DNA of 64,000 nt from Acidimicrobiia bacterium (GCA_044867525.1 JBIOVB010000107.1:25419-89418), one strand, 5' to 3'; shown: positions 24,001 to 61,404, numbered from the stretch's first letter. Notes: a model not told the origin generated them from the sequence alone. Numbers and translations are program-made.

Positions 24001-24042
24001 CCCGATCATTATCGGCAAGCGAGGGCGGTTACCGTCGCAGTT

Positions 24043-45226: not shown

Positions 45227-46069
45227 TTGATGCGGTTAACTTCGGTGGCAGTCATGGCTGAGCTCTCCGCCAGTGCACGCGCCAAGCTCCCCAACAGCGC
45301 TTTCGCGTATGTCGACGCTCAGGGAAACCGCCGGCTCCCAATCAATGACGAGGCCCACGTCCGCAACGCCCTATCCCGGTTCAATCAGGTCAAGTTCGAG
45401 AATGACGCCGCCCGGGAGCGGGCCTTTCGCAAGGTCCTGACCGCAGCGACCAAATATGGCATAGCTCCTGTCGGGTTTGTCGCCCGTCAGCTCAGGGAGG
45501 CGGCCGCCAGGGCGGGCTCGTCCGACCTTCCCTCCGGTCCGGTGACATTCCTCTTCAGTGACATCGAGGGCTCCACGGTCTTGGTCCAGCGGTTGGGAGA
45601 TGGCTATTCGGCGGTGCTCTCCACCGTCCAGGGTCTCATCGGCTCCGCGGTCGATGCCAATGGTGGCTACGAGGTGGATGCTCGTGCCGACGAGTTCTTC
45701 GCCGCCTTCGCCGAGGCCGGGTCGGCTTTGCAGGCCGCGATCGACGTGCAGCGGTCGATGCGAAGTCACGAATGGCCAGACGGGGTCGAAGTCCGGGTTC
45801 GCATCGGCTTGCACAGCGGGGAACCGGCCCGGACAGAGACCGGCTACGTCGGGTTGCCGGTGAACACCGGGGCCCGGGTCTGCGACGCCGGGCACGGGGG
45901 CCAGATCCTGCTTTCCGCAGCGACCAGAGAAGCCCTGGGGCCAGCCACAGGGGAGGCTCAGGTCGTAGAGCTCGGTGGATTCGAATTGAGGGGGTTGCCC
46001 GAGCCAGTGACGCTCTTTCAGGCAACGGTGCCCGACTTGCCATCCGTGTTTCCGGGGTTGCGAGTCTGA
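45227..46069 (+). CDS. Soluble class III adenylate/guanylate cyclase with an uncharacterised roughly 100-aa N-terminal domain
   Basis: Cyclase motifs FLFSDIEGST, RIGLHSGEP and VNTGARV. N-terminal domain has the conserved-looking block LPINDEAHVRNALSRFNQVKFEND. Its stop overlaps the next gene's start. Confidence 0.75.
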   Translation: MMRLTSVAVMAELSASARAKLPNSAFAYVDAQGNRRLPINDEAHVRNALSRFNQVKFENDAARERAFRKVLTAATKYGIAPVGFVARQLREAAARAGSSDLPSGPVTFLFSDIEGSTVLVQRLGDGYSAVLSTVQGLIGSAVDANGGYEVDARADEFFAAFAEAGSALQAAIDVQRSMRSHEWPDGVEVRVRIGLHSGEPARTETGYVGLPVNTGARVCDAGHGGQILLSAATREALGPATGEAQVVELGGFELRGLPEPVTLFQATVPDLPSVFPGLRV

Positions 46070-47478
46070 TGGCCCGGCGTCGGGTGGATCTCGCCGTGAG
46101 ACGCAGGCGTTCGCTCGCAATGCTGATCCTCGCGGTGATCGGCTTGGTCGCCATTCCGACAACAGCCGGCGCTGCCGCCCCAGTGCCCGGTCGTTTCGTC
46201 GACGATGACGGTCATCCAGGAGAGGTGTATCTGGAGTGGCTCGCCGACCTCGGTGTGGTCGAAGGCTGCAACCCTCCCGCCAACGACCGGATTTGCCCCG
46301 AAAGAACCCTGAATCGTGCGGAAGCAGCGAAGATCCTCATCGGGACCGGGCAGCGCACCGGGTTCCTCCCGGCGATCCCGGCCGACCTCCCCGACCGTTT
46401 CGTGGACGACAACGAGATCTGGGCGGGGAGCGCCTCGAGGCTGGCGAACTTCCTCGCCCAACTCGGGGTGGTTTCCGGTTGTGATCCCCCTGCCAATCGG
46501 AGGTTCTGCCCGACTCAGTCCCTGACCCGTGGCCAGGTGGCGAAGATGATCGTGAACGTCTTCGACCTGACCGCCCCCGACTCCTACGTCTCGCCGTGGA
46601 CCGACACCAAGGGCCGGTTCTACGACGAGTCGGCTCGGGTCGCCGCCTATCACCTGCTTTGGGACTCGAGCTCGGGTCGTTTCATCGGGGGGGAGGCCAT
46701 CGATCGCTCAGAGTTCGCCAGGACCGTGGTGCTGGCGGCAACCGGAAATGACCTTTGTCCTCCGACGCCGTTCACCGCGGCCCGGGTTGGCTCACTCGGC
46801 CGCAGGTTCCCCAACCAGTCGTTCACCGCTTACGCATATGACACTCGAACCGGTTGCGCCTACTGGATGCATCCCGACAACCGGTTACGCACCGCCTCGG
46901 TGTTCAAGGTCATGGTCATTGCCGGGACCTTGCTCGAAGCTCAGAACGATGAACGCGGGGTCTCCTCATGGGAGTGGGGACAGCTGGTGCCGATGATCAC
47001 CGAATCGGCGAACAACCCGGTGCGGGCCCTGTGGAGCCACTTTGGAGGCTCGCCCTGGTTCCGCCGCCAGGCGCAGTTGTACGGTCTCACCGAGACCAGC
47101 CCGGTCGGGGATTCCGGTGGGGTGTGGGGTCGTACCACGACTTCGGCCAAGGATCAGGCCGATCTGTTGCGTCAGGTGTTGAGAGGGGAGTGGGGTCCGC
47201 TGGAAGAGCCATATCGATCCCGGGCCTGGGACCTGATGACCTCGGTCGTCCCCTCACAGACCTGGGGCGTGACCGGTGGTGTGCCGGCGGGCTGGGTGGT
47301 GGCACAGAAGAACGGGTTTGCGGGTCACATCGCGAACTCGGTCGGTTTCGTGCGCCAGCCCGATGGCGAGGAGGGGTATGTGATCGCCGTGCTCAGCAAC
47401 GGATGGTCTGACTGGCATCGGGGCGTCCCGGTCGTGGACGAGATCTCGGGCTGGGTCTCCGGAAAGCTCGCTCGGTGA
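46069..47478 (+). CDS. Secreted protein: 2 SLH-like Cys-pair repeats plus a class A beta-lactamase/PBP-like serine hydrolase domain
   Basis: Signal peptide, then two repeats (GCNPPANDRICP...NRAEAAKIL; GCDPPANRRFCP...TRGQVAKMIV). SxxK (ASVFK), SxN (ESANN) and KxG (QKNG) motifs of the class A fold. Confidence 0.65.
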   Translation: MARRRVDLAVRRRRSLAMLILAVIGLVAIPTTAGAAAPVPGRFVDDDGHPGEVYLEWLADLGVVEGCNPPANDRICPERTLNRAEAAKILIGTGQRTGFLPAIPADLPDRFVDDNEIWAGSASRLANFLAQLGVVSGCDPPANRRFCPTQSLTRGQVAKMIVNVFDLTAPDSYVSPWTDTKGRFYDESARVAAYHLLWDSSSGRFIGGEAIDRSEFARTVVLAATGNDLCPPTPFTAARVGSLGRRFPNQSFTAYAYDTRTGCAYWMHPDNRLRTASVFKVMVIAGTLLEAQNDERGVSSWEWGQLVPMITESANNPVRALWSHFGGSPWFRRQAQLYGLTETSPVGDSGGVWGRTTTSAKDQADLLRQVLRGEWGPLEEPYRSRAWDLMTSVVPSQTWGVTGGVPAGWVVAQKNGFAGHIANSVGFVRQPDGEEGYVIAVLSNGWSDWHRGVPVVDEISGWVSGKLAR

Positions 47479-47496
47479 GCCCAAGGATCGAAGCAA

Positions 47497-48942
47497 GTGC
47501 CTGAGGTCGACCCCCACCTATTCGTGATCTTTGGCGGCACCGGTGATCTCGCCGAGCGCAAGCTGATTCCGTCCCTCTACCGGCTAATGGCGGAACAGGG
47601 TGCCACCGAAAAGTCCTTGGTTCTCGGTGTGTCCAGGAAAGACGTGGGCGACGATGCCTATCGGAAGTGGACTATCCACGCGCTGGCGGCGAGTGGCCAG
47701 TCCGGTGAGGACGTGGCCCGATGGTGCCAGTCGAATGTCTTTCAGCAGCAAGTCTCGGATCAGACAGAGGGCTACCTCGACCTCAGCAAGCGGGTAGAGG
47801 CGATCGAGTTGGAGCGCGGCCTGCCCGGGAACAGGGTCTTCTACCTGGCAACACCACCCCGGGCATTCCCGTCGACAATCGAGGGGCTGGGGAACGCGGG
47901 CTTGAACCAGAGTGCGGGGTGGACCCGGGTGGTGGTCGAGAAGCCTTTTGGCACCGATTTGGAAACGGCTCGTGAGCTGAATGAGATCCTGCTCGCGGGT
48001 TTCGACGAGTCACAGATCTTCCGCATCGATCATTACCTGGGCAAGGCGACGGTCCAGAACCTCCTCGGTTTCCGGTTCACCAACCCCATGTTCGAGCGGC
48101 TGTGGAATCGGGATCTGGTCGACCACATCGAGATCACGGTCGCCGAGGATGGTGGGATCGGTGATCGCGCCGGCTACTACGAGCATGCGGGAGTTGTGCG
48201 CGACATGGTCCAGAACCATCTCACCCAGCTTCTCGCCCTTGTCGCCATGGAGCCACCGAATGTCTTCGATGCTGACCGAATCCGTGACGAGAAGGTCAAG
48301 GTGATCAAGGCGATCGCACCGATCAAAACCCATGATGTGGTGTATGGCCAGTACGGCTCAGGAGGATCCGGCGGGTCAGTTCCCGGTTACCTGGAGGAGA
48401 GCGGGGTCTCCGCCGACTCCCTGACCCCGACCTTCGTGGGAATCAGGCTGTTCGTCGACTCCTGGCGCTGGCAGGGCGTGCCTTTCTTTCTTCGCACCGG
48501 GAAGCGGCTTCCCGGTCGCTTCACCCAGGTCGCGGTCACATTTCGCAAGCCGGCGTTGTGCATGCTTCATGGGCTGACAGACGATTGCGCCTATCCCGAC
48601 GTGCTCCTGATCATCCTCGAGCCGGACGAGGGATTCTCTCTCAGGTTCAACGTGCGCTCACCCAAGGACGAGGACAGGGTCGACTCCCAGGCGCTCCATT
48701 TTCGCTACTCGGATGTGTACGACGAGCTGCCTCCCGCCTACTTGACCCTGATTCTCGACATCCTCGAAGGTGATCAGACGCTGTTCGTCAGGGCAGACGA
48801 GGTCGAGGCCTCCTGGCACGTCTACGACCCGGTTCTGGCTCATATGCCGGCGCCGATCGTGTACGCGGCCGGTACCTGGGGCCCGGTTGCCATGGACCAG
48901 GGATTGCCGATTGGAGGTGAGGACTGGCGGCACCGGCGCTGA
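47497..48942 (+). CDS. zwf: Glucose-6-phosphate 1-dehydrogenase
   Basis: FVIFGGTGDLAERKLIPSLY NADP motif, RIDHYLGK, EKPFG. GTG start. Confidence 0.9.
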   Translation: MPEVDPHLFVIFGGTGDLAERKLIPSLYRLMAEQGATEKSLVLGVSRKDVGDDAYRKWTIHALAASGQSGEDVARWCQSNVFQQQVSDQTEGYLDLSKRVEAIELERGLPGNRVFYLATPPRAFPSTIEGLGNAGLNQSAGWTRVVVEKPFGTDLETARELNEILLAGFDESQIFRIDHYLGKATVQNLLGFRFTNPMFERLWNRDLVDHIEITVAEDGGIGDRAGYYEHAGVVRDMVQNHLTQLLALVAMEPPNVFDADRIRDEKVKVIKAIAPIKTHDVVYGQYGSGGSGGSVPGYLEESGVSADSLTPTFVGIRLFVDSWRWQGVPFFLRTGKRLPGRFTQVAVTFRKPALCMLHGLTDDCAYPDVLLIILEPDEGFSLRFNVRSPKDEDRVDSQALHFRYSDVYDELPPAYLTLILDILEGDQTLFVRADEVEASWHVYDPVLAHMPAPIVYAAGTWGPVAMDQGLPIGGEDWRHRR

Positions 48943-48950
48943 AGGAACGC

Positions 48951-50294
48951 TTGGCCTTGCAACGCAGACATGGGACACTCGCCCGAATGTTTCGCCGGTT
49001 GACGAGTCTGGTTGCCCTGACGGTGGTCGCATTCTCGGTTTTCGCGACCGCAGCTGCCTCTGCCGCTCTCCCCCCGGGCGGCACCTTTATCGATGATGAC
49101 GGTGACGTTCACGAGGGCTCGATCGAGGCCATATATGCCGCCGGCCTCACCGTCGGATGCGACGAGCGGGGCATCCGCTACTGCCCGGACATCGGGGTCA
49201 CCAGAGGGCAGATGGCGGCGTTTCTCGCTCGCGCTCTGAATCTTCCCGCATCCTCGGACGACCGGTTCACCGATGACGATCGCTCAGAGTTCGAAGGAGC
49301 GATCAACAAGGTGGCCGCCGCCGGGATCACAGTCGGCTGCAACCCTCCGGCCAACACGCGCTTCTGCCCCGATCGGCGGGTGACCAGGGCGGAGATGGCC
49401 ACGTTCCTGGTGCGGAGCTTCCCCAACCGGATGCCGGCCACCGCCCCGGACGCGTTCGTCGACGACGACGCCGACGTTCATCAAGGGAACATCAACCGCA
49501 TCGCTGCCGCCGCCATCACCCTGGGGTGCAACCCGCCGACCAACAATCGCTACTGCCCTGGTGACCATGTCACCCGGGGGCAGATGGCCACGTTCCTGAC
49601 CCGGGCCCTCGGGCTCCAGTCGGACAAGCCCCCACCCCAGCTCCCGATCGAGCGGGTGTCCAGCTTCACCACGTTCTACAGCTGCTGTGAGGACCGGGTG
49701 ATCAACATCAGGGCAATGGCCCGCCAGATCAACGGGTATGTGGTCATGCCCGGTGAGACCTTCTCGGTGGACCGGATTGCCGGGCCCCGCACCACCGCCA
49801 AGGGATACGTGCCGGCCCCATACATGCAGGGCGGCCAGGGCCATTGCTGCGCGGTGGGGGGCGGGGTGAGCCAGTTCGGCACCACGATGCACAACGCGGT
49901 GTTCTGGGGCGGCTACCGGGTGGTCGACCATCAGCCGCACAGCGGGTGGATCTCCCGCTATCCCCTGGGGATCGAGGCGACTCTCGTGTATTCGTCCATC
50001 GACTACAAGTTCATCAACGACACCGTGACCCCGGTCTACATTCGGGCTCTCGCCTCCTCCTCCTCACTCACCATCGAGTTGTGGGGAAACCAGGGCGGGT
50101 GGCGGGTCCGGGGCTCGCACCCCATCGGATCACGTAGCTCGTCGATCACGGTCCTCGATCGTGGAGGGTCGAACGCGAAGCGGGTCACGGCACGGGTCAC
50201 CGGCTCGGCGCCGGGATCGGTGAGGGTGATCCGGACCCTGACCCAAGGCGGGGTCGCAACTTCACAAGCCTGGAATTGGTTCTACTTGAGCTGA
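48951..50294 (+). CDS. Secreted protein: 3 SLH-like Cys-pair repeats plus a VanW-like domain
   Basis: Signal peptide. Three copies of F.DDD..H.G.I..I..AGIT.GCNPP.N.R(F/Y)CP....VTRG.MA.FL.RAL. C-terminal YSCCE...GGGVSQFGTTMHNAVFWGGY resembles the VanW family. Confidence 0.65.
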   Translation: MALQRRHGTLARMFRRLTSLVALTVVAFSVFATAAASAALPPGGTFIDDDGDVHEGSIEAIYAAGLTVGCDERGIRYCPDIGVTRGQMAAFLARALNLPASSDDRFTDDDRSEFEGAINKVAAAGITVGCNPPANTRFCPDRRVTRAEMATFLVRSFPNRMPATAPDAFVDDDADVHQGNINRIAAAAITLGCNPPTNNRYCPGDHVTRGQMATFLTRALGLQSDKPPPQLPIERVSSFTTFYSCCEDRVINIRAMARQINGYVVMPGETFSVDRIAGPRTTAKGYVPAPYMQGGQGHCCAVGGGVSQFGTTMHNAVFWGGYRVVDHQPHSGWISRYPLGIEATLVYSSIDYKFINDTVTPVYIRALASSSSLTIELWGNQGGWRVRGSHPIGSRSSSITVLDRGGSNAKRVTARVTGSAPGSVRVIRTLTQGGVATSQAWNWFYLS

Positions 50295-50337
50295 GCCGAA
50301 CGGCGGCCCGGGCAAGCCCGTCGCGTAGCCTGCCAGC

Positions 50338-51303
50338 ATGATCGTCGACGCCGCCATCTACAGGCACGGGCACCGTGAGCCTGGGCCCTTCGACTTCGAG
50401 GAGGCCGGTCGACTTCGGGCGGACCCGGCGACCTCGGTGTGGGTGGGTCTCTACGAGCCCACTGAAGAGGAGTTCGAAGCGGCGCGCAAGGCATTCGATC
50501 TCCACCCCCTTGCGGTGGACGACGCGGTCAACGCCCATCAGCGGCCCAAGCTCGAGACCTATGGCCAGACTCTGTTCGTCGTCACCAAGCCGGCCAGGTA
50601 TGTCGATCCGGTGGAGATCATCGAATTCGGCGAGATCCTGCTCTTCGTCGATCCCGACTTCGTCGTCGCGGTGCGTCATAGGGAAGCAAGTCAGCTGGTG
50701 CAGGTGCGTCAGGAGTTGGAGGCTGATCCCGAGCGGCTGCTACTCGGCCCGGGAGCAGTCCTGCACGCGATCTTCAATCAGGTGGTCAGGGACTACGGCA
50801 AGGTTCTCGACGAGTTGGAAGCCGATGTGCTCGAAGTGGAGAGGGAAGTCTTTTCCGAGGGCGGCGACCTGGAGCGGATATACCGGCTCAAGCAGGAAGT
50901 GATGAGCTTCCAGTTCGCCGCCGAGCCGCTGGCCGAGCCCCTGCTCCGGCTTGCTGGAGACGATTTCGCAGCGATACATCCCAAGCTCAAGCCCTACTTC
51001 CGTGACGTCAACGACCATCTGTTGCGCGTCGTCGACCGGATCCACGGCTATCGGGACATGTTGACCTCGATGCTCGCCGCAAACCTCACCCAGGTCAGCC
51101 TCCGCCAGAACGAGGACATGCGGAAGATCTCGGCCTACGTCGCGATCGCTGCGGTCCCCACGTTTCTCGCTGGGATCTGGGGGATGAATTTCGAGTTCAT
51201 GCCCGAGATCGACGAGGTGTGGGGCTATCCCCTGGCGCTGCTGGTTATGGCCGGAGCCTGCACCTTCCTCTACACCCGGTTCAAGAAGTCGGGCTGGCTA
51301 TGA
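50338..51303 (+). CDS. corA: CorA family magnesium/cobalt transporter
   Basis: GMNF signature (AGIWGMNFEFMPE), two C-terminal TM helices, cytoplasmic N-domain. Confidence 0.85.
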   Translation: MIVDAAIYRHGHREPGPFDFEEAGRLRADPATSVWVGLYEPTEEEFEAARKAFDLHPLAVDDAVNAHQRPKLETYGQTLFVVTKPARYVDPVEIIEFGEILLFVDPDFVVAVRHREASQLVQVRQELEADPERLLLGPGAVLHAIFNQVVRDYGKVLDELEADVLEVEREVFSEGGDLERIYRLKQEVMSFQFAAEPLAEPLLRLAGDDFAAIHPKLKPYFRDVNDHLLRVVDRIHGYRDMLTSMLAANLTQVSLRQNEDMRKISAYVAIAAVPTFLAGIWGMNFEFMPEIDEVWGYPLALLVMAGACTFLYTRFKKSGWL

Positions 51304-51306
51304 GGA

Positions 51307-51714
51307 TCACGCGGTCAACAAAACCACCCCGAGAGTGATCACCCCGACGCCGAGGGCGATTGCGCCCATGTAGACGAGGGCGATGAGGCGGTTCGGGGAA
51401 GTGCGTCCCTCACCAACGGCCGAGAGGAAGAAGCCTGCCGGCATGAGGATCGCGGCCAGAGGTATCGCCGACGTGCCGGCGAATTCGCCGAGACCGTCGA
51501 GCGCGACGGCGTCGGCGTAGAGGAGGGCGACGAGGGAGAGGATCACGAGGACTCCAGCATGGGCATGGCCCGCGCGGAACGAGGCTTTCTGAAATTCCGT
51601 GAAGGTTGCCTTGCCACGAAGTATGCCGAGCATGAAAACGCCGCCGTATTCCACTGCCGCGACTGTGAGCAGGAGGACGCCTGCGGTGCTGAGTGTGGCT
51701 GCTGACAATTCCAT
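51307..51714 (-). CDS. Small integral membrane protein (unknown)
   Basis: 4 hydrophobic helices. Start at MELSAA. Confidence 0.4.
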   Translation of the reverse strand: MELSAATLSTAGVLLLTVAAVEYGGVFMLGILRGKATFTEFQKASFRAGHAHAGVLVILSLVALLYADAVALDGLGEFAGTSAIPLAAILMPAGFFLSAVGEGRTSPNRLIALVYMGAIALGVGVITLGVVLLTA

Positions 51715-51804
51715 GTCTCCTCCTCTTCCACGAGCCTTTGCCACAACCTACGGTGCCGCCGGATACGATCGGCCCTGGCGGTCGAGACAGTTGAGGAGTA
51801 TTGA

Positions 51805-52413
51805 GTGGCGATCATCTCACGTGGGTTCACGGGTCGCCGGCCACAGGTCGATGACCCGAGCAGGCTCCCGCCCGGGCAGTACATCACCGCCGACTTTCCG
51901 GTGCTGTCCGCCGGTCCCACACCCCGGACCAGGCTCGACGAATGGACCTTCGAGATTCGGGGCTTCCCTGGGGAGCCGAGGTCATGGTCGTGGAACGACT
52001 TCACAGCCCTCCCAGCCGAGACGTTCACAGTCGACATCCACTGCGTCACCAAGTGGTCGAAGTTCGACACCGTTTGGACCGGCGTCTCAGTGGACCGCCT
52101 GCTCGATGGATTGGATCTCGGCGAGACGAAGTTCGTCAGCGCCTTCTGCGACGGGGGCTACACCACCAACCTCCCGCTTGCCGAGGTGATGGGTGGGAAG
52201 GCATGGGTGGCATACCAATACGATGGCCAGCCTCTCGAGCCGGCTCACGGCGGCCCGGCGCGCTTACTGGTCCCTCATCTCTACTTCTGGAAGAGCGCCA
52301 AATGGGTCCGCGGCCTGGAACTGCTCGTCGAGGACCGACGGGGGTTCTGGGAGACCTATGGCTACCACAATCACGGAGACCCATGGCGGGAACAGAGGTA
52401 TTGGGGCGACTGA
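51805..52413 (+). CDS. Sulfite-oxidase-family molybdopterin-binding oxidoreductase (no signal peptide)
   Basis: Oxidoreductase molybdopterin-binding pattern: ...WTFEIRG...DIHCVTKWSKFDTVWTGVS...GGPARLLVPHLYFWKSAKW. Confidence 0.65.
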   Translation: MAIISRGFTGRRPQVDDPSRLPPGQYITADFPVLSAGPTPRTRLDEWTFEIRGFPGEPRSWSWNDFTALPAETFTVDIHCVTKWSKFDTVWTGVSVDRLLDGLDLGETKFVSAFCDGGYTTNLPLAEVMGGKAWVAYQYDGQPLEPAHGGPARLLVPHLYFWKSAKWVRGLELLVEDRRGFWETYGYHNHGDPWREQRYWGD

Positions 52414-53117
52414 ACTGGCTGGCGGCCTCGGTGACCGAAGTCCGCCCCGAGACCCACCGGGTGAGGAGCATCGTGTTCGAATGCCCGGGCTGGGAGGGGC
52501 ACCAGGCAGGTCAGCATGTCGATGTCCGGCTGACCGCCGAGGACGGGTACCAGGCCCAACGCAGCTACTCGATCGCCTCCGCCCCCGAGGACGACCACCT
52601 GGTGCTCTCGATCGAGCGACTGCAGGATGGCGAAGTCTCCCCGTACCTGGTCGATGTCGTGGAGCCAGGTGACCAGCTCGAGATGCGGGGCCCGATCGGC
52701 GGCTACTTCATCTGGGATGGAGAGGAACCGCTCATGATGATCGCCGGGGGCTCCGGCGTAGTGCCGTTTCGAGCCATGATCCGCCACCGACGGGCAATGG
52801 GCTCGCTCGCCCCAGCCAAGCTCCTGTACTCATCGAGATCGTGGGAGGACGTGATCTACAGGGACGATCTTGCTGACCCGGGGCCTGGGGCCGAGGTGAT
52901 CCATACCCTGACCCGGTCCCGGCCCGGGGACTGGGATGGCTACCAGCGACGTGTCGACACGGAGATGCTCGCCGATGTCGTCTTCCCGCCGTCGTCCAGG
53001 CCCTGGATCTTCATATGCGGCCCGACGGCGTTCGTGGAGACGGCAGCCGGAGCATTGGTCGACCTAGGCCACGATGCGGCGATGATCAGGACCGAGCGAT
53101 TCGGGCCCACCGGCTGA
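52383..53117 (+). CDS. FNR-like FAD/NAD(P)H-binding oxidoreductase (flavin reductase partner)
   Basis: RSYSIAS (RxYS FAD motif), GPIGGYF and MIAGGSGVVPF (NAD(P)-binding). Overlaps the upstream Moco gene by about 30 nt. The start is uncertain. Confidence 0.65.
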   Translation: MAGTEVLGRLNWLAASVTEVRPETHRVRSIVFECPGWEGHQAGQHVDVRLTAEDGYQAQRSYSIASAPEDDHLVLSIERLQDGEVSPYLVDVVEPGDQLEMRGPIGGYFIWDGEEPLMMIAGGSGVVPFRAMIRHRRAMGSLAPAKLLYSSRSWEDVIYRDDLADPGPGAEVIHTLTRSRPGDWDGYQRRVDTEMLADVVFPPSSRPWIFICGPTAFVETAAGALVDLGHDAAMIRTERFGPTG

Positions 53118-53121
53118 CCCC

Positions 53122-53469
53122 TTAGAAGTCCCTACGTCCGTTGAAGTGGGCAACCACCTCGGGCCGGGTGGGCTGGTACACCGCCACCCGGTGCCCGCCA
53201 CTGGTGCGAAACGAGCAGCAGGGGCCCTGCGGGATCTCGAACACCCCTTCCGGCTCCCATCCCTCGCTCTCCAGGCGGGTGAGCGTTGCCGCTAGGTCGG
53301 CCACCCGATAGATGAGGATGGGGCGCTCGCCTTCGACGTGGTCGGTGAAGAGGAGGTCGGGCGGCATGGGGGACATCCGCACCATGGCGACCCGGGTGTT
53401 CCACTCCTGGATGGCGAAAATCAACTCGCCACCGAGCACACCGCTGAAGTAGGAGGCGTCGGCGGCCAC
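53122..53469 (-). CDS. Glyoxalase/VOC superfamily protein
   Basis: Small beta-alpha-beta-beta-beta module pattern. GTG start. Confidence 0.5.
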   Translation of the reverse strand: MAADASYFSGVLGGELIFAIQEWNTRVAMVRMSPMPPDLLFTDHVEGERPILIYRVADLAATLTRLESEGWEPEGVFEIPQGPCCSFRTSGGHRVAVYQPTRPEVVAHFNGRRDF

Positions 53470-53559
53470 ATCCCGGCTCGGGATGTAAAGGAAGTCCAGC
53501 GAGTCGAAAGGGGTCGTTGTGTCTACCCGCCGATTATCGCCTCGCCGCCTTGTCGATGC

Positions 53560-54606
53560 TCAGAGACCAAGCCCACGAGCCAGGAAGGCGGCCATCATCC
53601 CCCGGGTCACATACTGGTTGGGGCAGAACCGGTTGTTGTCGGGTGGGTTGCATCCCTGGGTGATCCCGGCGGCAGCGAGCTTCTCGATCGCCGACTCGAA
53701 CTGTGATCCGTTGTCGTCGATGAAGTCGACGCTGCCCTGATTGGTGAGACCGAGCCCGCGCACCAGGAAGGCGGCCATCATCCCCCGGGTCACGTACTGG
53801 TTGGGGCAGAACCGGTCATTGCGCGGCGGGTTGCATCCTTCGGTGATTCCGGCGGCGGCGAGCTTCTCGATCGCCCCTTCGAAGGTGGAACCATTGTCGT
53901 CGGTGAAGTCGACGTTGCCTTGGTCGGTGAGGCCGAGACCGCGCACCAGGAAGGCGGCCATCATCCCCCTCGTGACATAGTCATCGGGGCAGAACCGATC
54001 GTTACGGGCCGGGTTGCACCCTTGGGTGATCCCGGCATCGGCGAAGCGCTCGATCGCTCCTTCGAAGATCGAGGCGTCGTCGTCCCAGAACTCACCGGCG
54101 ATCGAGGGCGTGTAGGTGGAGGCCTGGAAGAAGAGCTGGGTGACCCAGGTCCCGCTGCCGTCGATGTAAACCCCGAAAGCACCAAAACGGTAGGCGGGGT
54201 TCATGATGTTGGCCCGATGCCCCGGTGAGTTCATCAACATCTGATGGACCCGGGAGCAATCGGCGTCGGGATCACCCCACATCGCGATGTTCTCGCCCCA
54301 GGTGTGGGCTCCGTCGGGGAGGATGCTGGCGCGTGCCGAAGTCGACATGTGGCGAAAGTCGTTGTTCCGCATCCACCGGGAGTGGCTACGAGCTCCGGGG
54401 AACACATCCGAGGCCATTGTGAGCGGGGCGAGGCCGGCGGACGCTCGCGATGCGTTCACGGAGGCCTCCAGGCAAACCTCGTAGGCACCAGGACCCTGGT
54501 CGGCACGGACGGATAGGGCCAGGGCGGGAGCGAAGGAGGACGCGACGAGTAGGACGACAACGGCCGATCGTCGAAGGATGATTTGGAGTCCGCTTTTGGT
54601 GGCCAC
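53560..54606 (-). CDS. Secreted protein: CAP/SCP/PR-1 domain plus 3 SLH-like Cys-pair repeats
   Basis: Signal peptide. CAP-like block (HMSTSARASIL...GENIAMWG...NSPGHRANIMNPAYRFGAFGVY...TWVTQLF). Then three 61-aa repeats (F.DDNGS.FEGAIEKLAAAGIT.GCNPP.NDRFCPNQYVTRGMMAAFLVRGLGL). Confidence 0.65.
   Translation of the reverse strand: MATKSGLQIILRRSAVVVLLVASSFAPALALSVRADQGPGAYEVCLEASVNASRASAGLAPLTMASDVFPGARSHSRWMRNNDFRHMSTSARASILPDGAHTWGENIAMWGDPDADCSRVHQMLMNSPGHRANIMNPAYRFGAFGVYIDGSGTWVTQLFFQASTYTPSIAGEFWDDDASIFEGAIERFADAGITQGCNPARNDRFCPDDYVTRGMMAAFLVRGLGLTDQGNVDFTDDNGSTFEGAIEKLAAAGITEGCNPPRNDRFCPNQYVTRGMMAAFLVRGLGLTNQGSVDFIDDNGSQFESAIEKLAAAGITQGCNPPDNNRFCPNQYVTRGMMAAFLARGLGL
53571..54119. repeat. 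Three tandem direct DNA repeats of 183 bp (about 85-90% identity), encoding the SLH-like repeats of the CAP protein
   Basis: The block ...gcgcaccaggaaggcggccatcatcccc... recurs at about 53571, 53754 and 53937. The track shows two near-identical spurious plus-strand ORFs (53519-53740, 53741-53980) caused by this periodicity. Confidence 0.8.
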
Positions 54607-54741
54607 TGACCCTTGGAAAAAGAGGCTGTGCCCCTTTCATCGGTATCCCAAACCAGGGGCTTTAGGTGGTCGCGGGTAACCTCGCGTCGGAAGCTTTGCT
54701 CGGATCCAGAAGGTCCGACCGATCTGGGCCTGGAGGTCCGA

Positions 54742-55416
54742 ATGAAAACCTCGCGTTTCGCCCTGCTGGGCCTGATGCTCCTGGTGGTACTTGCCTGTGG
54801 CGGGAGCTCATCGGGGGATACCACCACACCCGCGGATGACGGCGCCGGGGAAACGACGACCACCCCTACCACCGTGGCCACCACCACCGACTCGGGCGAA
54901 CAGGTTTCCAGCCTCGCCGACATGCCGCAGGAGTGCCTCGACGCCTTCAGGGCCTTCCTCCAGGAGCTGGAGCCGTTGGTCGAGGGTCGGGATTTCAACC
55001 AGATGACCCAAGCGGACATGGAGGCCTTTCTCGCCGAGATCGAGCCGATCAGCGCTCCCTTGGAGGAACAGACCGCCGATTGTCCCGACGTCGACCTGAG
55101 CGCTGAGGAGAGCCTGGCTGCCATGCGTGAGTTTGCCGAAACGGAGGCACCGGGAACGGTCGCTTACTTCGCATGGCTCGAGGAGTTCATTGTCAGCTTC
55201 GGAGAAGGCGGCGGCGTGGAGGCCAGCGGGGACTGTGAGACCGACCTGGCGACTCTCGACGAATACGTGGGTCAAGGCGGGACGATGAGTGATCTACCGG
55301 TTGGCGAGCTCGCCGGGGTCGGGGCGCTGCTCACGGCGGTGAGCACCGAGTGCCCTCCCGAGCGATTCCAGGAATGGGTGACCGAGGAGGCCAACGCCAC
55401 CTGGATGGCCGGGTAG
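54742..55416 (+). CDS. Lipoprotein of unknown function
   Basis: Lipobox LVVLACGG, Thr-rich linker and an acidic domain with 4 Cys. Start trimmed to MKTSRF. Confidence 0.5.
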   Translation: MKTSRFALLGLMLLVVLACGGSSSGDTTTPADDGAGETTTTPTTVATTTDSGEQVSSLADMPQECLDAFRAFLQELEPLVEGRDFNQMTQADMEAFLAEIEPISAPLEEQTADCPDVDLSAEESLAAMREFAETEAPGTVAYFAWLEEFIVSFGEGGGVEASGDCETDLATLDEYVGQGGTMSDLPVGELAGVGALLTAVSTECPPERFQEWVTEEANATWMAG

Positions 55417-57390: not shown

Positions 57391-57481
57391 GACAAAGAAC
57401 CATTAACTGGCTGTGAAACCGGGCCATGACCGACGTCTTGAACCCTACGTTGGCGGGAGACCCGATACCAAGGAGTGTTCG

Positions 57482-58021
57482 ATGAGACTCGCCACGTTGT
57501 CCCTGCTGCTCGTGACCCTCGCCGCATGCGGGGGTGACAGCAGTGCCACAACCACCGCCCCGGCTCCAGAAACCACCACGACTGTGGAGATGACGGAGGA
57601 GGACGTGCTCGCCTTGGCCGAGGCGGAGGGGGACCTGGGAACCTTCCTCGCAGCCACCGAAGCGGCCGGGATCATGGAGGACTTCCACGGCGAGGGACCG
57701 TTCACCCTGTTCATCCCCACCGATGAAGCCTTCTCCGCATACCTCGAGGGTGCTGGAATGACTCAGGAAGAGGCGTTCGCCGGTGGCGAGATGCTCCAGT
57801 CAATCGTTGGCTACCACGTGGTGACCATGATGGAGGACTCCGAGATGGTGATGGGAATGGATGGGCAGACCTTCACCACACTTCAAGGTTCTCCGCTGGA
57901 AGTGACGGTCGACGGGGAGACGGTCATGGTCGGAGATGCCACCATCCTTCGCTATGACATCGAAGCGTCCAATGGCGTGATCCACGTGATAGACACCGTG
58001 CTGACCCCACCCGAGGGTTGA
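57482..58021 (+). CDS. Fasciclin (FAS1) domain lipoprotein
   Basis: Lipobox LAACGG. FAS1 motifs GPFTLFIPTDEAF and NGVIHVIDTVL. Confidence 0.75.
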   Translation: MRLATLSLLLVTLAACGGDSSATTTAPAPETTTTVEMTEEDVLALAEAEGDLGTFLAATEAAGIMEDFHGEGPFTLFIPTDEAFSAYLEGAGMTQEEAFAGGEMLQSIVGYHVVTMMEDSEMVMGMDGQTFTTLQGSPLEVTVDGETVMVGDATILRYDIEASNGVIHVIDTVLTPPEG

Positions 58022-58566
58022 TGACACCCCGGCGCTGGACTCTGGTTGGAATTCTGGCGGCAGTCGGTGTCGTTTCATTCCTCCTCTTCCGACCGGACAC
58101 CCTGGTCACCGAGGTGGAGACCACCGAGGCCCTCGAAGACGCCTTCGCCACCTCGACATCGGCCGGGCCCACTACCACCGGCGTCGCCCCACCCGTTCAA
58201 GAGGACGCCACGTCCACGTCCACCGAGCCGCCGCAGCCGGTCCTGCTTGCCTCCGGCCAATTTGTCGGGATCGACCATTCGGCGGTGGGCACCGCCGGGA
58301 TCTACGAACAGGACGGGACCTATGTGCTCAGGTTCGAGGACGACACCGACATCCAGAACGGCCCGGATCTGTATGTCTGGGTGTTGGCGGAGGGCTCGTA
58401 TCAGGGGGGAGATCCTGGCGCGCACCTCGACCTGGGGAACCTGAAGGGCACCACCGGTGGGCAGAACTACGACCTACCGCCCGAGTTCGACCCGGCGCTC
58501 CACCGCACGGTGCTGATCTGGTGTCTTCGATTCTCGGTCCCCTTCGCCACCGCGCCCTTGGAATGA
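58018..58566 (+). CDS. Membrane-anchored DM13-domain protein
   Basis: N-terminal TM. GQFVGIDHSAVGTAGIY...GTYVLRFED.F...NGPDLYVWL matches the DM13 pattern. 4-nt overlap with the fasciclin gene. Confidence 0.6.
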   Translation: MMTPRRWTLVGILAAVGVVSFLLFRPDTLVTEVETTEALEDAFATSTSAGPTTTGVAPPVQEDATSTSTEPPQPVLLASGQFVGIDHSAVGTAGIYEQDGTYVLRFEDDTDIQNGPDLYVWVLAEGSYQGGDPGAHLDLGNLKGTTGGQNYDLPPEFDPALHRTVLIWCLRFSVPFATAPLE

Positions 58567-59004: not shown

Positions 59005-60918
59005 CTAGTCGCACCTGGTCTCGACGAGGTACTCCTCGACGGACCGCCGGTATTCGTAGGAGCACTCACCCATCGACACGTCGAGGACGAAAACGTCTTC
59101 GAACCAGTCGTAGCTGCCGGTCCCTGACATCAGTACATCCCTGCTCAGGCCACACTCGTCGAACGCAAAGTCGTTTCCGACCTCGGTGGCGGTGAATGCC
59201 AGTGTCCCCCCGTTGGCGCAACCGGTGCTGGTGTCGGTGTGCCCGTCCCAGTAGTAGTACTCAGGGAGGTACCCGATCTCCCATTCGATGTCGCTGAGCA
59301 TGGTCTCCGGGTCCTCTGTGTCGACCACGCCGAGCTGCGGCTGATAGGGGGCGACGACGACGCCGTCGCAGACCTCGGTCGTGGGCGGACTCCCGTCGAT
59401 GATGAAAGCGGTCACCTCCTCGTCGGGGCAGGGCTCGCCCCAGCCGAAGATGACATGGGGCCCGCCATCCTTGGACATGATGTAACCGTCGGCGAGCCGG
59501 GAATGGACCTCTACCCCTTGCTGATAGGGGGTTACCGGGTCGACCGTGGACCCGAGAACCAGCACCGGGATCCCGTCTGCGGTCAGTGGCGGCGGCCGCC
59601 CCCCTGTCGCCTTGTGTGGCCAGAAGGCGCAGGGGAGGTCCCCGTAGTACACCGAGGCGAGGCGCAATCCCTCAGGCCCGGGGGCGGCGTCGACGTAACG
59701 CTTGACGCTGTCTTCCGGTGTGGCGCCGTAGGCGTAGTCCAGGCACTCCACCCCGTAGTACATGGCATCCGACCAGGTGGGGTCTTCGATCACCTCCTGG
59801 GTTTGTGGGTCGAGACCGAGATTGACGTTGAGAAGGCGGAGCAGTGGTACCAGGTCGTCGTCCCCGCCCCATGCAGAGAGCGCCCGGAGGAAGAGCATTC
59901 GGTCGTACTCCTCGTAGAGGTGCCCGCTGGCGATGGCCTCCAGGTCACCGAGACCGAGTGACCTGCTGGTGGCGGTGCCGTCGGGCAGCGGGAACTCGGC
60001 GCTGAGCTCGCCCTCCAGTAGCTGGGCGTAGAGCCGGTCATAGGTGTCGCCAGCGGCCATCCCGAAGTCATCGGCGCACCCGTCGTCCTGGTCGCACGCC
60101 TCGAGCATCAGGTCGAGGGTGCGGCTGGACGCAGCCGCCATCTCCTGGTGGTAGGTGATGCCCTCCAGGGTGAGGTCCACCACCCCATCGAGGATCAGCC
60201 GGTCCAGGTTTTCGGGGTGGGTCGCGGCATAGGTCTGCCCGAACTGGGTTCCGTAGCTCTCTCCGAACACGACGAACTCCCGAAAGCCGAAGGTCTCCCG
60301 GAAAACCTCCAGGTCCTCGACGGCCTGCGCGGTAGAGACATAAGCGAGCTCCTCGGGATCCCCCATCTCGGCGACACAGTCGGCGGTGAAGGTCTCGGCC
60401 GCCTCGACCAGGAGGTTGATCCCGGCCGCGGAGGCAGCATCACCCGGAGCTCGGAGGTAGGCGTTGGCGGCCTGAGGGCAGGTCAGCCCGCCGGAGCTGG
60501 CGATCCCCCGTTGGTCGAAGAAGACGATGTCGAACTGTCCTGCGATCGCCGGGTCGTAGAGATCGGTGTAGCCATCGGCGGAGGAGATCCCGGATGTGCC
60601 CGGGCCCCCGGTGACCGTGACGAAGGCGCCTCGACTCTCACCGGCGGATGGAAGCACGGCGAAGGTGACGCCAATTGTCCTCGCGTCGTCCGGGTTGAAG
60701 TGGTCGAGGGGCAACTCCATCGTGACGCAGGTGAACACGGAATCGGGGCAGAGCTCGCCGCCCAGGGATTCCAGGATCTCGGTCGTCGTCGCCTGGCTTG
60801 CCGTCGTTGTCGTAGCTGAAGTGGACTTGGTCGTCGGCGACGCGAGGGTGGTCGTGGGATCAGCCTGGGAGGTGCATGCGGCGAAGGCCACGAGGAGGGC
60901 GACACATCCCGTTTTCAC
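59005..60918 (-). CDS. Alpha/beta-hydrolase lipoprotein, S33 (tripeptidyl-aminopeptidase-like) family, with a Cys-rich C-terminal extension
   Basis: Lipobox LVAFAACTS, Thr-rich linker, GESYG nucleophile elbow, Cys-rich C-terminal 150 aa. GTG start chosen to avoid the divergent GNAT gene. Confidence 0.7.
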   Translation of the reverse strand: MKTGCVALLVAFAACTSQADPTTTLASPTTKSTSATTTTASQATTTEILESLGGELCPDSVFTCVTMELPLDHFNPDDARTIGVTFAVLPSAGESRGAFVTVTGGPGTSGISSADGYTDLYDPAIAGQFDIVFFDQRGIASSGGLTCPQAANAYLRAPGDAASAAGINLLVEAAETFTADCVAEMGDPEELAYVSTAQAVEDLEVFRETFGFREFVVFGESYGTQFGQTYAATHPENLDRLILDGVVDLTLEGITYHQEMAAASSRTLDLMLEACDQDDGCADDFGMAAGDTYDRLYAQLLEGELSAEFPLPDGTATSRSLGLGDLEAIASGHLYEEYDRMLFLRALSAWGGDDDLVPLLRLLNVNLGLDPQTQEVIEDPTWSDAMYYGVECLDYAYGATPEDSVKRYVDAAPGPEGLRLASVYYGDLPCAFWPHKATGGRPPPLTADGIPVLVLGSTVDPVTPYQQGVEVHSRLADGYIMSKDGGPHVIFGWGEPCPDEEVTAFIIDGSPPTTEVCDGVVVAPYQPQLGVVDTEDPETMLSDIEWEIGYLPEYYYWDGHTDTSTGCANGGTLAFTATEVGNDFAFDECGLSRDVLMSGTGSYDWFEDVFVLDVSMGECSYEYRRSVEEYLVETRCD

Positions 60919-60993
60919 GGCGGCAATGTACTTTGGCGGGATGAACGTGGCGGAAAGGGCCGGGAAGCTCCTCGACGAGCTGAGCCGCCGCTG

Positions 60994-61404
60994 ATGGATT
61001 CCGACGCAGTCGATTTCGAATGGAAGGGTGGCTTTGGCAACGAGGAGGTCAACGCCCTCCACGCCGAGGCCTTCGAGACCCGGGTGTTCGACGACGACTG
61101 GCTGGCGCTTCTCGAAGAGCACTCACTGGGATGGGTGGTGGCCAGGGGCGGGTCGCAGCTGGTCGGATTCGTGAACGTGATCTGGGACGGCCAGGTCCAC
61201 GCCTGGATCCAGGACTTGATGGTGGCGACGGTGGAGCGTGGACGTGGGGTCGGTACCCGGCTGGTGGGGATCGCCCGTGAGGAGGCGAAGCAGGCAGGGT
61301 GCGAGTGGCTCCATGTCGACTTCGACGACCACCTGCGTTCGTTCTATTACGACGCCTGCGGGTTCATCCCCACCAATGCCGGGTTGATCGACCTGACCCG
61401 ATGA
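60994..61404 (+). CDS. GNAT family N-acetyltransferase
   Basis: RGRGVGTRLV acetyl-CoA binding motif. Confidence 0.65.
   Translation: MDSDAVDFEWKGGFGNEEVNALHAEAFETRVFDDDWLALLEEHSLGWVVARGGSQLVGFVNVIWDGQVHAWIQDLMVATVERGRGVGTRLVGIAREEAKQAGCEWLHVDFDDHLRSFYYDACGFIPTNAGLIDLTR

What the first reader, a model, noticed from the sequence alone, without database searches (positions are those of the whole stretch)
46069..54606. Three secreted enzymes (class A beta-lactamase/PBP-like, VanW-like, CAP/PR-1-like) share a divergent Cys-pair SLH-like repeat module
Three genes within 8.5 kb each carry 2-3 copies of the same roughly 61-aa repeat: F.DD(D/N)...FEGAI.K.AAAGIT.GCNPP.N.RFCP...VTRG.MA.FL.R.LGL.

- It aligns position by position with the S-layer-homology consensus (F.D....A..AI..L...GI..GY.DG.F.P...ITRAE.A..L.RAL).
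- The canonical GYPDGTFRP turn is replaced by GCNPPxNxRFCP, with two invariant Cys that could form a disulfide.
- Each repeat array is attached to a different extracytoplasmic catalytic domain. This looks like a shared cell-surface anchoring cassette decorating a set of wall-active enzymes.
- The genes are interleaved with zwf and corA and sit next to a cyclase gene.

I am not aware of a described SLH variant with this Cys pair, nor of this PBP-like/VanW/CAP trio.
Basis: partly seen in the sequence, partly recalled or inferred. Interest (0 to 1): 0.78.

Follow-up and report, generated by a model that had tools for sequence, protein, structure and literature searches.

The report
Cysteine-stapled SLH cell-wall anchors
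Three secreted proteins in this Acidimicrobiia genome fragment carry genuine S-layer-homology cell-wall anchor domains of a lineage-specific, two-cysteine type that occurs in thousands of related, already SLH-annotated proteins, so the finding is real but mostly ordinary.

Summary
Three genes (46069-47478 +, 48951-50294 +, 53560-54606 -) carry eight ~61-aa repeats with an invariant GC-x8-CP turn.

- **The repeats are SLH domains.** Pfam PF00395 passes its cut-off in two proteins and is borderline in the third. AlphaFold models of two triads (pLDDT 96 and 85) superpose on the B. anthracis Sap and P. alvei SpaA SLH trimers (TM up to 0.83). The ligand-contacting aromatic, Gly29 and Arg43 equivalents are conserved.
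- **The Cys-pair type is not rare.** About 1,700 protein clusters (50% identity) match at E<=1e-30, mostly from uncultured Acidimicrobiia. It is fused to about 59 different Pfam families, and homologs are already named "S-layer homology domain-containing protein".
- **The three genes are not a conserved unit.** Syntenic relatives lack the P1-zwf-P2-corA block.
- **There is no csaB in the window.** In relatives, however, arrays of these SLH genes sit beside a GT2 + CsaB-like pyruvyl-transferase fusion gene inside glycan-synthesis clusters.

Most likely mechanism: non-covalent anchoring of exoproteins to a pyruvylated wall glycopolymer. A disulfide probably staples the groove-lining loop, but that was not tested. 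I found no paper describing the Cys-pair subtype.

The parts
46069..47478 (+). P1: signal peptide, SLH triad, then a class-A beta-lactamase/PBP-A-like serine hydrolase domain (aa 226-469).
   Evidence: PF13354 E 1.7e-14; SLH 19.4 bits against a 20.8 cut-off. Nearest solved relative is Tll2115 (PBP-A), E 5e-9. Motifs are SVFK, SAN and KNG. Six Cys in total, an even number.
46189..46350 (+). P1 SLH repeat 1 (Cys-pair type, GCNPPANDRICP).
46393..46569 (+). P1 SLH repeat 2 (Cys-pair type, GCDPPANRRFCP; has a 4-aa insertion in helix 1).
46591..46743 (+). P1 SLH repeat 3. It is degenerate and lacks both Cys (WDSSSGRFIGGEAIDRSEFA).
   Evidence: The AF2 model of aa 41-229 has six helices, pLDDT 85 and pTM 0.81. 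Foldseek gives TM 0.74/0.78 to the 3PYW SLH trimer over 195 columns.
48951..50294 (+). P2: signal peptide, SLH triad, then a VanW domain (aa 249-378). The start may instead be the ATG at 48987.
   Evidence: PF04294 E 2.2e-37; SLH 29.7 bits. It has Ser at the position of the Cys conserved in Bacillota VanW. Ten Cys in total.
49080..49244 (+). P2 SLH repeat 1 (short turn, GCDERGIRYCP).
49260..49421 (+). P2 SLH repeat 2 (GCNPPANTRFCP).
49449..49616 (+). P2 SLH repeat 3 (GCNPPTNNRYCP).
53560..54606 (-). P3: signal peptide, CAP/SCP (YkwD-like) domain (aa 50-158), then a C-terminal SLH triad.
   Evidence: PF00188 E 1.8e-9; SLH 37.9 bits; TIGR02909 YkwD E 3.8e-13. Orthologs sit in synteny in L001 and L002. 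Eight Cys in total.
53563..54096 (-). P3 SLH triad: three Cys-pair repeats at 53929-54096, 53746-53913 and 53563-53730. It is also a 183-bp tandem DNA array.
   Evidence: AF2 pLDDT 96, pTM 0.90. Foldseek gives 3PYW TM 0.83, rmsd 2.5 Å, E 1e-8, followed by 6BT4 and the SpaA-SLH entries. TRF finds period 183, 2.8 copies, 84% identity.

Best explanation
The repeats are true S-layer-homology (SLH) domains of a lineage-specific subtype found in uncultured Acidimicrobiia (Actinomycetota).

**How the module is built.** In each protein three tandem repeats fold into the usual pseudo-threefold SLH 'spindle'. Each repeat gives one helix to a central three-helix bundle.

**What it most likely does.** It holds a Sec/Tat-exported protein non-covalently on the cell wall. 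It would do so by binding a pyruvylated (anionic) secondary cell-wall glycopolymer through three conserved positions: an aromatic residue (SLH-13), the Gly of G-I-T-x-G (SLH-Gly29) and the Arg of T-R-G-Q (SLH-Arg43).

**What is different.** The loop between the two helices lines the ligand groove. Here it is 3-4 residues longer than in canonical SLH and is bracketed by two invariant cysteines (G-C-NPPxNxRF-C-P). In the oxidising extracytoplasmic space these most likely form a disulfide that staples the loop.

**Status of the three genes.** They are independent members of a very large paralogous set of SLH-anchored exoproteins, not a dedicated trio.

**Shown versus inferred.**
- Shown: domain identity, fold, conservation of ligand residues, abundance, partner diversity, and linkage to a CsaB-like pyruvyl transferase in relatives.
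- Inferred: the disulfide, the ligand, and wall binding in this particular organism.
For: - **Profile.** PF00395 scores 29.7 and 37.9 bits (cut-off 20.8) in P2 and P3, and 19.4 in P1.
- **Fold.** The AF2 triad models have pLDDT 96 and 85. The only significant PDB matches are SLH trimers: Sap 3PYW at TM 0.83, rmsd 2.5 Å; 6BT4; and the SpaA entries 6CW*/7SV*. The next hits have E>0.2.
- **Ligand residues.** Over 1,194 repeats the SLH-13 position is F 83% or H 11%, the GIIxG glycines are 91% and 99% Gly, and the TRAE Arg is 99% Arg. The roles of these residues come from Blackler et al. 2018 (PMC6081394).
- **Cys pair.** Both Cys are present in 1,188 of 1,194 repeats and in 337 of 337 12-residue turns. 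P1 repeat 3 has lost both together.
- **Export.** All three proteins have N-terminal signal-like sequences and an even Cys count (6, 10, 8).
- **Linkage to a pyruvyl transferase, forward direction.** A GT2 + PS_pyruv_trans fusion abuts Cys-SLH gene arrays in L018 and L046. It scores PF04230 E 1e-16 to 1e-23, and its best NCBIfam pyruvyl-transferase match is CsaB TIGR03609 at 80-88 bits.
- **Linkage, reverse direction.** Of metagenome loci encoding relatives of that enzyme at >=54% identity, 9 of 10 loci of >=7 kb carry Cys-SLH genes in the flanks (8 of 9 if the duplicate is counted once). None of the loci with relatives at <=35% identity do.
- **Context of those loci.** They also hold GT1, GT28 and GT2 glycosyltransferases and a UDP-sugar dehydrogenase.
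- **Generic cassette.** The triad is C-terminal in 104 and N-terminal in 30 of 137 cluster representatives, with 59 partner Pfam families.
Against: - No pyruvyl transferase or wall-glycan synthesis gene lies in the 64-kb window (Pfam; phmmer/jackhmmer). Whether this genome can make the ligand is therefore unknown.
- The CsaB-like domain is far below the NCBIfam CsaB equivalog cut-off (88 against 213 bits) and is fused to a GT2. Its product may not be the pyruvyl-ManNAc epitope of Bacillota.
- The TRAE motif is TRGQ/TRGM here, and the groove loop is longer, so ligand specificity could differ.
- The disulfide could not be measured because no coordinates were available.
- No thiol-disulfide oxidoreductase was seen in the window.
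- P1 is just below the Pfam SLH threshold.
Confidence: 0.8

Rival explanations
1. The fold is SLH but the ligand is different. The lengthened, Cys-bracketed loop and the TRGQ motif would retarget the triad. Candidate ligands are peptidoglycan itself (as with the polyamine-modified PG bound by Negativicutes OmpM), a non-pyruvylated anionic polymer, or an S-layer or other protein partner.
For: - The groove-lining loop carries a 3-4 residue insertion relative to Sap SLH2 and the canonical consensus (HMMER alignment).
- The Glu of TRAE is replaced by Gln or Met.
- No csaB lies in the window.
- The linked pyruvyl transferase is only CsaB-like and is fused to a GT2.
- SLH domains with a non-pyruvate ligand are reported for Negativicutes (bioRxiv 10.1101/2021.05.31.446380).
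Against: - All three pyruvate- and ManNAc-contacting positions (aromatic-13, Gly29, Arg43) are conserved at 94-99%.
- SpaA's own third repeat reads TRAQ and is functional (PMC6081394).
- There is tight genomic linkage to a PF04230 enzyme in relatives.
Confidence: 0.12
2. The three genes form a dedicated, co-regulated wall-remodelling cassette: a DD-peptidase, an L,D-transpeptidase and a CAP protein that share an anchor so they act at the same wall site.
For: - Three SLH genes fall within 8.5 kb.
- cyclase-P1-zwf-P2-corA are co-directional, with a 1-nt stop/start overlap and gaps of 18, 8 and 43 bp.
- P1 resembles PBP-A.
- VanW domains are L,D-transpeptidases in Bacillota (PMC11348318).
Against: - The syntenic loci L001 and L002 keep the histidine kinase, P3 and the cyclase (L002 also the molybdopterin-oxidoreductase and FAD/NAD-reductase genes). 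They lack P1, zwf, P2 and corA.
- P1 orthologs (60% identity) lie elsewhere, in L023 and L027.
- P3 is on the opposite strand, 3.3 kb away, behind unrelated redox genes.
- 38 of 79 relatives' loci hold two or more Cys-SLH genes with unrelated partner domains, so clustering is generic.
- P2 lacks the conserved VanW Cys.
Confidence: 0.05
3. The Cys pairs are not disulfides. They would be metal-binding or redox-sensing thiols (three CX8C units per triad), making anchoring metal- or redox-dependent.
For: - The two Cys are strictly invariant.
- The disulfide geometry could not be checked.
Against: - The proteins are exported.
- The Cys come in pairs within one short loop, and total Cys counts are even.
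- No His or Asp co-ligands are conserved next to them; the loop is N-P-P-x-N-D-R-F.
- The AF2 model is very confident without any metal.
Confidence: 0.03

Closest known systems
SLH domain trimers of Bacillus anthracis Sap (PDB 3PYW, 6BT4) and Paenibacillus alvei SpaA (6CWC and related entries)
   Same: - Three tandem repeats of about 55-60 aa forming a pseudo-threefold spindle (TM 0.72-0.83).
- Conserved aromatic-13, GIIxG Gly and TRAE Arg.
- PF00395 profile match.
   Different: - Only about 20% sequence identity.
- The inter-helix loop is 3-4 residues longer and bracketed by two invariant Cys.
- TRAE reads TRGQ.
- The host is Acidimicrobiia rather than Bacillota.
- Ligand binding is untested.
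B. anthracis BSL proteins and clostridial/Thermoanaerobacterium SLH-anchored enzymes (for example BslO, AmiA, XynA), named from my own knowledge of the literature. The general principle appears in the reviews retrieved.
   Same: A large paralogous set of exoproteins and enzymes, some of them wall-active, each displayed through an N- or C-terminal SLH triad. csaB-type pyruvylation is genetically linked to SLH genes.
   Different: - Different partner-domain repertoire (PBP-A-like, Ser-type VanW, CAP, many Ig/cadherin/propeller domains).
- The pyruvyl transferase is fused to a GT2.
CsaB (TIGR03609), the SCWP ketal-pyruvyl transferase
   Same: The enzyme linked to Cys-SLH arrays in relatives matches PF04230. 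CsaB is its best NCBIfam pyruvyl-transferase hit (E 1e-22 to 1e-25).
   Different: - It scores 80-88 bits against an equivalog cut-off of 213.
- It is the C-terminal domain of an 875-917 aa GT2 fusion.
- It is not present in this window.
PBP-A / Tll2115 of Thermosynechococcus (PDB 2J9O) and VanW-type L,D-transpeptidases Ldt4/Ldt5 of C. difficile (PMC11348318)
   Same: - The P1 catalytic domain aligns to Tll2115 with SxxK, SxN and KxG motifs.
- P2 matches the full VanW profile and keeps the invariant His and Asp columns.
   Different: - P1 reads SAN and KNG instead of SDN and KTG.
- P2 has Ser (GGGVSQ) where Bacillota, Rubrobacter and Deinococcus VanW have the conserved Cys (GGGVCQ). Streptomyces, Nocardia and Rhodococcus VanW also have Ser there.
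- Neither known protein uses an SLH anchor.

Membership tests
SLH domain (Pfam PF00395 / PROSITE PS51272) | Profile match at or above the curated threshold. | tested here: met
   P2 scores 29.7 bits and P3 37.9 bits against a 20.8 cut-off. P1 scores 19.4, just below. 88 of 93 family representatives hit PF00395 at E<=1e-5.
SLH domain (Pfam PF00395 / PROSITE PS51272) | Three tandem copies folding into the three-pronged spindle with a central three-helix bundle. | tested here: met
   AF2 models have pLDDT 96 (P3) and 85 (P1). Foldseek gives TM 0.83 and 0.74-0.78 to 3PYW. Only SLH trimers are significant. This is a prediction, not an experimental structure.
SLH domain (Pfam PF00395 / PROSITE PS51272) | Conserved ligand-contact residues: aromatic SLH-13, GIIxG (Gly29) and TRAE (Arg43). 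| tested here: met
   F 83% or H 11%; G-I-T-x-G with Gly at 91% and 99%; T-R-G-Q with Arg at 99%, over 1,194 repeats. All eight Cys-type window repeats keep the Gly and the Arg. The residue definitions come from PMC6081394.
SLH domain (Pfam PF00395 / PROSITE PS51272) | Canonical GYPDGTFRP-type turn. | tested here: not met
   It is replaced by G-C-N-P-P-x-N-x-R-F-C-P, 3-4 residues longer with two invariant Cys. This turn is typical of the family but is not used to define membership.
SLH/CsaB cell-wall anchoring system | A pyruvyl transferase (CsaB, PF04230) encoded in the same genome. | tested here: inconclusive
   None lies in the 64-kb window, and the rest of the genome is unavailable. In relatives a GT2 + PF04230 fusion is tightly linked to Cys-SLH gene arrays.
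SLH/CsaB cell-wall anchoring system | [quoted passage not shown] | not testable with these tools
   This needs wall-binding or ITC assays.
Class A beta-lactamase / PBP-A-like serine hydrolases (PF13354) | Profile match plus the SxxK, SDN and KTG motifs. | tested here: met
   PF13354 E 1.7e-14. Tll2115 E 5e-9. SVFK is present; SDN is SAN and KTG is KNG. Activity and substrate were not tested.
VanW-type L,D-transpeptidases (PF04294) | Profile match over the full domain. | tested here: met
   E 2.2e-37, profile positions 2-130 of 130.
VanW-type L,D-transpeptidases (PF04294) | The conserved catalytic Cys of the Cys-His-Asp triad (PMC11348318). | tested here: not met
   The only Cys column shared by the Bacillota, Rubrobacter and Deinococcus VanW sequences (GGG[VL]CQ) is Ser in P2 (GGGVSQ). 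The His and Asp columns are invariant. That this column is the catalytic Cys is my inference; the paper's text gives no motif.
CAP/SCP/PR-1 superfamily (PF00188) | Profile match above threshold. | tested here: met
   38.9 bits against a 21.1 cut-off. TIGR02909 YkwD E 3.8e-13, below its own cut-off.

The most novel reading that the evidence does not exclude
Uncultured Acidimicrobiia use a so far undescribed, disulfide-stapled subtype of the SLH domain as their general surface-display system.

- It appears on hundreds to thousands of exoprotein families.
- It is genetically coupled to an unusual GT2-CsaB-like fusion enzyme.
- The enzyme would build a lineage-specific pyruvylated wall glycan.
- The stapled, lengthened groove loop would change ligand specificity or stability relative to Bacillota SLH domains.
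Probability: 0.45. Interest if true: 0.4.

Novelty: new variant of a known kind. Interest (0 to 1): 0.3.

Why it matters
SLH/CsaB anchoring has been studied almost only in Bacillota, Cyanobacteria, Deinococcus-Thermus and diderm Terrabacteria. For Actinobacteria the literature I could read notes only "a few examples".

These data show that a whole class of abundant soil and sediment Actinomycetota relies heavily on a distinct, probably disulfide-locked SLH subtype, and they point to a candidate ligand-synthesis locus.

- This is useful for annotating Acidimicrobiia surface proteomes.
- A compact, stapled wall-binding module may also have engineering value.
- It does not reveal a new kind of system, and the window's three genes are ordinary members of the set.

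Tried and rejected
- **Exact look-up of P3 in public assemblies.** Not on record, so the source genome could not be retrieved.
- **Sequence search of the triad against PDB.** It gave only a marginal Sap hit (E 0.29). The fold comparison was needed.
- **csaB in the window.** Pfam scans of about 63 ORFs, plus phmmer with E. coli WcaK and jackhmmer with the Acidimicrobiia pyruvyl-transferase domain, found none.
- **jackhmmer for the pyruvyl transferase in L001-L079.** It found only L018 and L046. The forward test was therefore weak, so the reverse metagenome scan was run.
- **Literature.** Searches for SLH with Acidimicrobiia, or with Actinobacteria and disulfide, returned nothing relevant.
- **Solved structures.** None was found for the VanW or CAP parts. 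The one VanW hit is a spurious antibody match.
- **Cys-Cys distance.** It could not be measured because model coordinates are not exposed.
- **Rejected: the 'dedicated trio' reading**, on synteny.
- **Rejected: chance repeats.** The Cys pair is invariant across more than 1,100 repeats.
- **Rejected: a non-SLH fold**.

Full report

Yes. The ORF list and a six-frame motif scan show three ORFs:
- P1, 46069-47478 (+), 469 aa
- P2, 48951-50294 (+), 447 aa
- P3, 53560-54606 (-), 348 aa

Together they contain eight copies of a G-C-x(7-8)-C-P turn inside ~61-aa repeats. No other real ORF in the 64 kb has it.

The eight repeats align with invariant F, DD, GC, R, CP, R and A columns.

Two refinements:
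- P1 has a third repeat (aa 175-225) that has lost both cysteines.
- P3's three repeats are also a 183-bp tandem DNA array at 84% identity.

**2. What are the repeats?**

They are SLH domains.

- Pfam SLH (PF00395) scores 29.7 bits in P2 and 37.9 bits in P3 against a cut-off of 20.8. P1 scores 19.4.
- An AlphaFold2 model of the P3 triad, built on 121 sequences, has pLDDT 96 and pTM 0.90, with two helices per repeat.
- Against the PDB its only significant matches are SLH trimers: B. anthracis Sap 3PYW (TM 0.83, rmsd 2.5 Å), 6BT4, and the P. alvei SpaA-SLH entries. All other hits have E>0.2.
- The P1 N-terminal region, including the Cys-less third repeat, also models as a complete trimer: pLDDT 85, TM 0.74-0.78 to 3PYW.

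Blackler et al. 2018 (PMC6081394) define the ligand-contacting residues as SLH-Trp13, the Gly29 of GIIxG, and the Arg43 of TRAE. In 1,194 repeats of this family these positions are:

| Position | Residue frequency |
|---|---|
| SLH-13 (aromatic) | F 83% or H 11% |
| GIIxG glycines | Gly 91% and 99% |
| TRAE arginine | Arg 99% |

The difference from canonical SLH lies in the loop between the two helices. It is 3-4 residues longer (HMMER alignment to Sap) and bracketed by two Cys. Both Cys are present in 1,188 of 1,194 repeats.

A disulfide is the obvious reading, but it is inferred. It rests on three points: the proteins have signal-like N-termini; total Cys counts are even, at 6, 10 and 8; and P1 repeat 3 lost both Cys together. 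I could not measure the geometry.

**3. How common is it?**

Very common.

- A word-indexed search found at least 1,158 clusters at 90% identity (a capped figure). All carry PF00395, and several are named by NCBI 'S-layer homology domain-containing protein [Acidimicrobiia bacterium]'.
- All 120 best hits carry the motif, mostly three times.
- An exhaustive HMMER search of 1.84 billion cluster representatives gave 1,733 proteins at E<=1e-30 and 8,244 at E<=1e-10.
- In 137 representatives the triad is C-terminal in 104 and N-terminal in 30.
- 93 representatives carry 59 different partner Pfam families: Ig-like, fn3, VanY, subtilase, FG-GAP, cadherin, phosphoesterase and others.
The best 79 loci are all uncultured Acidimicrobiia or Actinomycetota MAGs.
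- Of these loci, 38 of 79 contain two or more Cys-SLH genes and 10 contain three to five.

Three such genes in 8.5 kb is therefore normal for this lineage.

**4. Are the three genes a unit?**

No.

- The surrounding genes are housekeeping.
- cyclase-P1-zwf-P2-corA are co-directional and tightly packed. The cyclase stop overlaps the P1 ATG.
- The syntenic loci L001 and L002 keep the histidine kinase, the P3 ortholog and the cyclase. L002 also keeps the two redox genes. Neither has any match to P1, zwf, P2 or corA.
- P1 orthologs (60% identity) lie in other contexts, in L023 and L027.
- CAP+SLH and VanW+SLH architectures recur independently elsewhere.

**5. What is the ligand?**

The window has no pyruvyl transferase.

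Using E. coli WcaK as a probe, I found a large GT2 + PS_pyruv_trans fusion directly beside arrays of Cys-SLH genes in L018 and L046.
- It matches PF04230 at E 1e-16 to 1e-23.
- Its best NCBIfam pyruvyl-transferase match is CsaB (TIGR03609, 80-88 bits). That is well below the equivalog cut-off of 213, but far above its WcaK scores.

The reverse test was a scan of metagenome contigs for relatives of this enzyme:
- It returned 21 loci with relatives at >=54% identity.
- Eleven of them carry Cys-SLH genes.
- That includes 9 of the 10 loci that are >=7 kb long (8 of 9 if the duplicate L082/L084 is counted once). The SLH genes are often immediately adjacent, as in L090, L096 and L018.
- None of the loci with relatives at <=35% identity has any Cys-SLH gene.

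In L018 and L097 the same neighbourhood holds GT1-like, GT28-like and GT2 glycosyltransferases and a UDP-sugar dehydrogenase.

This reproduces, in Acidimicrobiia, the SLH/CsaB linkage known from Bacillota and diderm Terrabacteria. It supports a pyruvylated wall glycan as the ligand. It remains an inference for this genome.

**6. The enzymes**

- **P1.** Its catalytic domain is closest to Tll2115, deposited in PDB 2J9O as 'TLL2115 protein'. To my knowledge this is the cyanobacterial PBP-A DD-peptidase. The match has E 5e-9 and SVFK/SAN/KNG motifs.
- **P2.** VanW domains were shown in 2024 to be L,D-transpeptidases with a Cys-His-Asp triad (PMC11348318). P2 has Ser at the only Cys column shared by Bacillota, Rubrobacter and Deinococcus VanW proteins (GGGVCQ becomes GGGVSQ). 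VanW proteins of Streptomyces, Nocardia and Rhodococcus also have Ser there. Only Bacillota VanW proteins were tested in that paper. P2's activity is therefore open.
- **P3.** The CAP/YkwD-like domain has no assigned function.

**7. Comparison and novelty**

Functionally this is the SLH display system, as in the B. anthracis BSL proteins. By profile, fold and ligand residues it is a member of the SLH family.

What is not described in any paper I could search is the Cys-bracketed, lengthened loop as a lineage-wide subtype, and its link to a GT2-CsaB-like fusion. Absence from a full-text library of open-access papers is weak evidence of novelty. Databases already label these proteins SLH.

I rate it a new variant of a known kind. 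Interest is low to moderate (0.3).

Noticed in passing
window 49695-50084 (P2 VanW domain; motif GHCCAVGGGVSQFGTT): P2 has Ser where Bacillota, Rubrobacter and Deinococcus VanW proteins have their only shared Cys (GGG[VL]CQ), the presumed catalytic Cys of VanW L,D-transpeptidases. Streptomyces, Nocardia and Rhodococcus VanW also have Ser there. The His and Asp columns are invariant. This suggests a Ser-type VanW subfamily in Actinomycetota whose activity has not been tested.
   Followed up: partly
L018 3973-6597, L046 1-2577, L097 8210-10960 (relatives, not the window): An 875-917 aa fusion of a GT2 glycosyltransferase with a CsaB-like pyruvyl transferase. It sits among GT1, GT28 and GT2 glycosyltransferases and a UDP-sugar dehydrogenase, directly beside arrays of 3-5 Cys-pair SLH genes. 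It is a candidate wall-glycan (SLH ligand) locus of Acidimicrobiia.
   Followed up: partly
window 46067-46071 and 45227-51303: The cyclase stop codon overlaps the P1 start (TGATG). cyclase-P1-zwf-P2-corA are co-directional with gaps of 18, 8 and 43 bp, which looks like one transcription unit. The P1-zwf-P2-corA block is nevertheless absent from the syntenic loci L001 and L002.
   Followed up: partly
window 53563-54067: The three SLH repeats of P3 form a 183-bp tandem DNA array (2.8 copies, 84% identity). This points to recent duplication or concerted evolution. The repeats of P1 and P2 are much more diverged.
   Followed up: no
window 8091-9092 and 12666-13685: A LigD primase-polymerase domain gene and an ATP-dependent DNA ligase gene (NHEJ-type repair) are separated by ABC-transporter genes.
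   Followed up: no
window 17979-19133, 21218-24018, 39452-40624, 57413-58566, 59005-61122: Other predicted envelope or exported proteins in the window have no SLH triad: an SLT transglycosylase, two tandem S41/PDZ peptidases, an NPCBM_assoc protein, fasciclin and DM13 proteins, and a TAP-like alpha/beta hydrolase. SLH anchoring is therefore selective and does not apply to all exoproteins.
   Followed up: no
window 31941-33281 and 54613-55416: A 446-aa protein with two DUF6174 stretches, and a 267-aa lipoprotein-like ORF next to P3 with a Thr-rich linker and no Pfam match. The functions of both are unknown.
   Followed up: no
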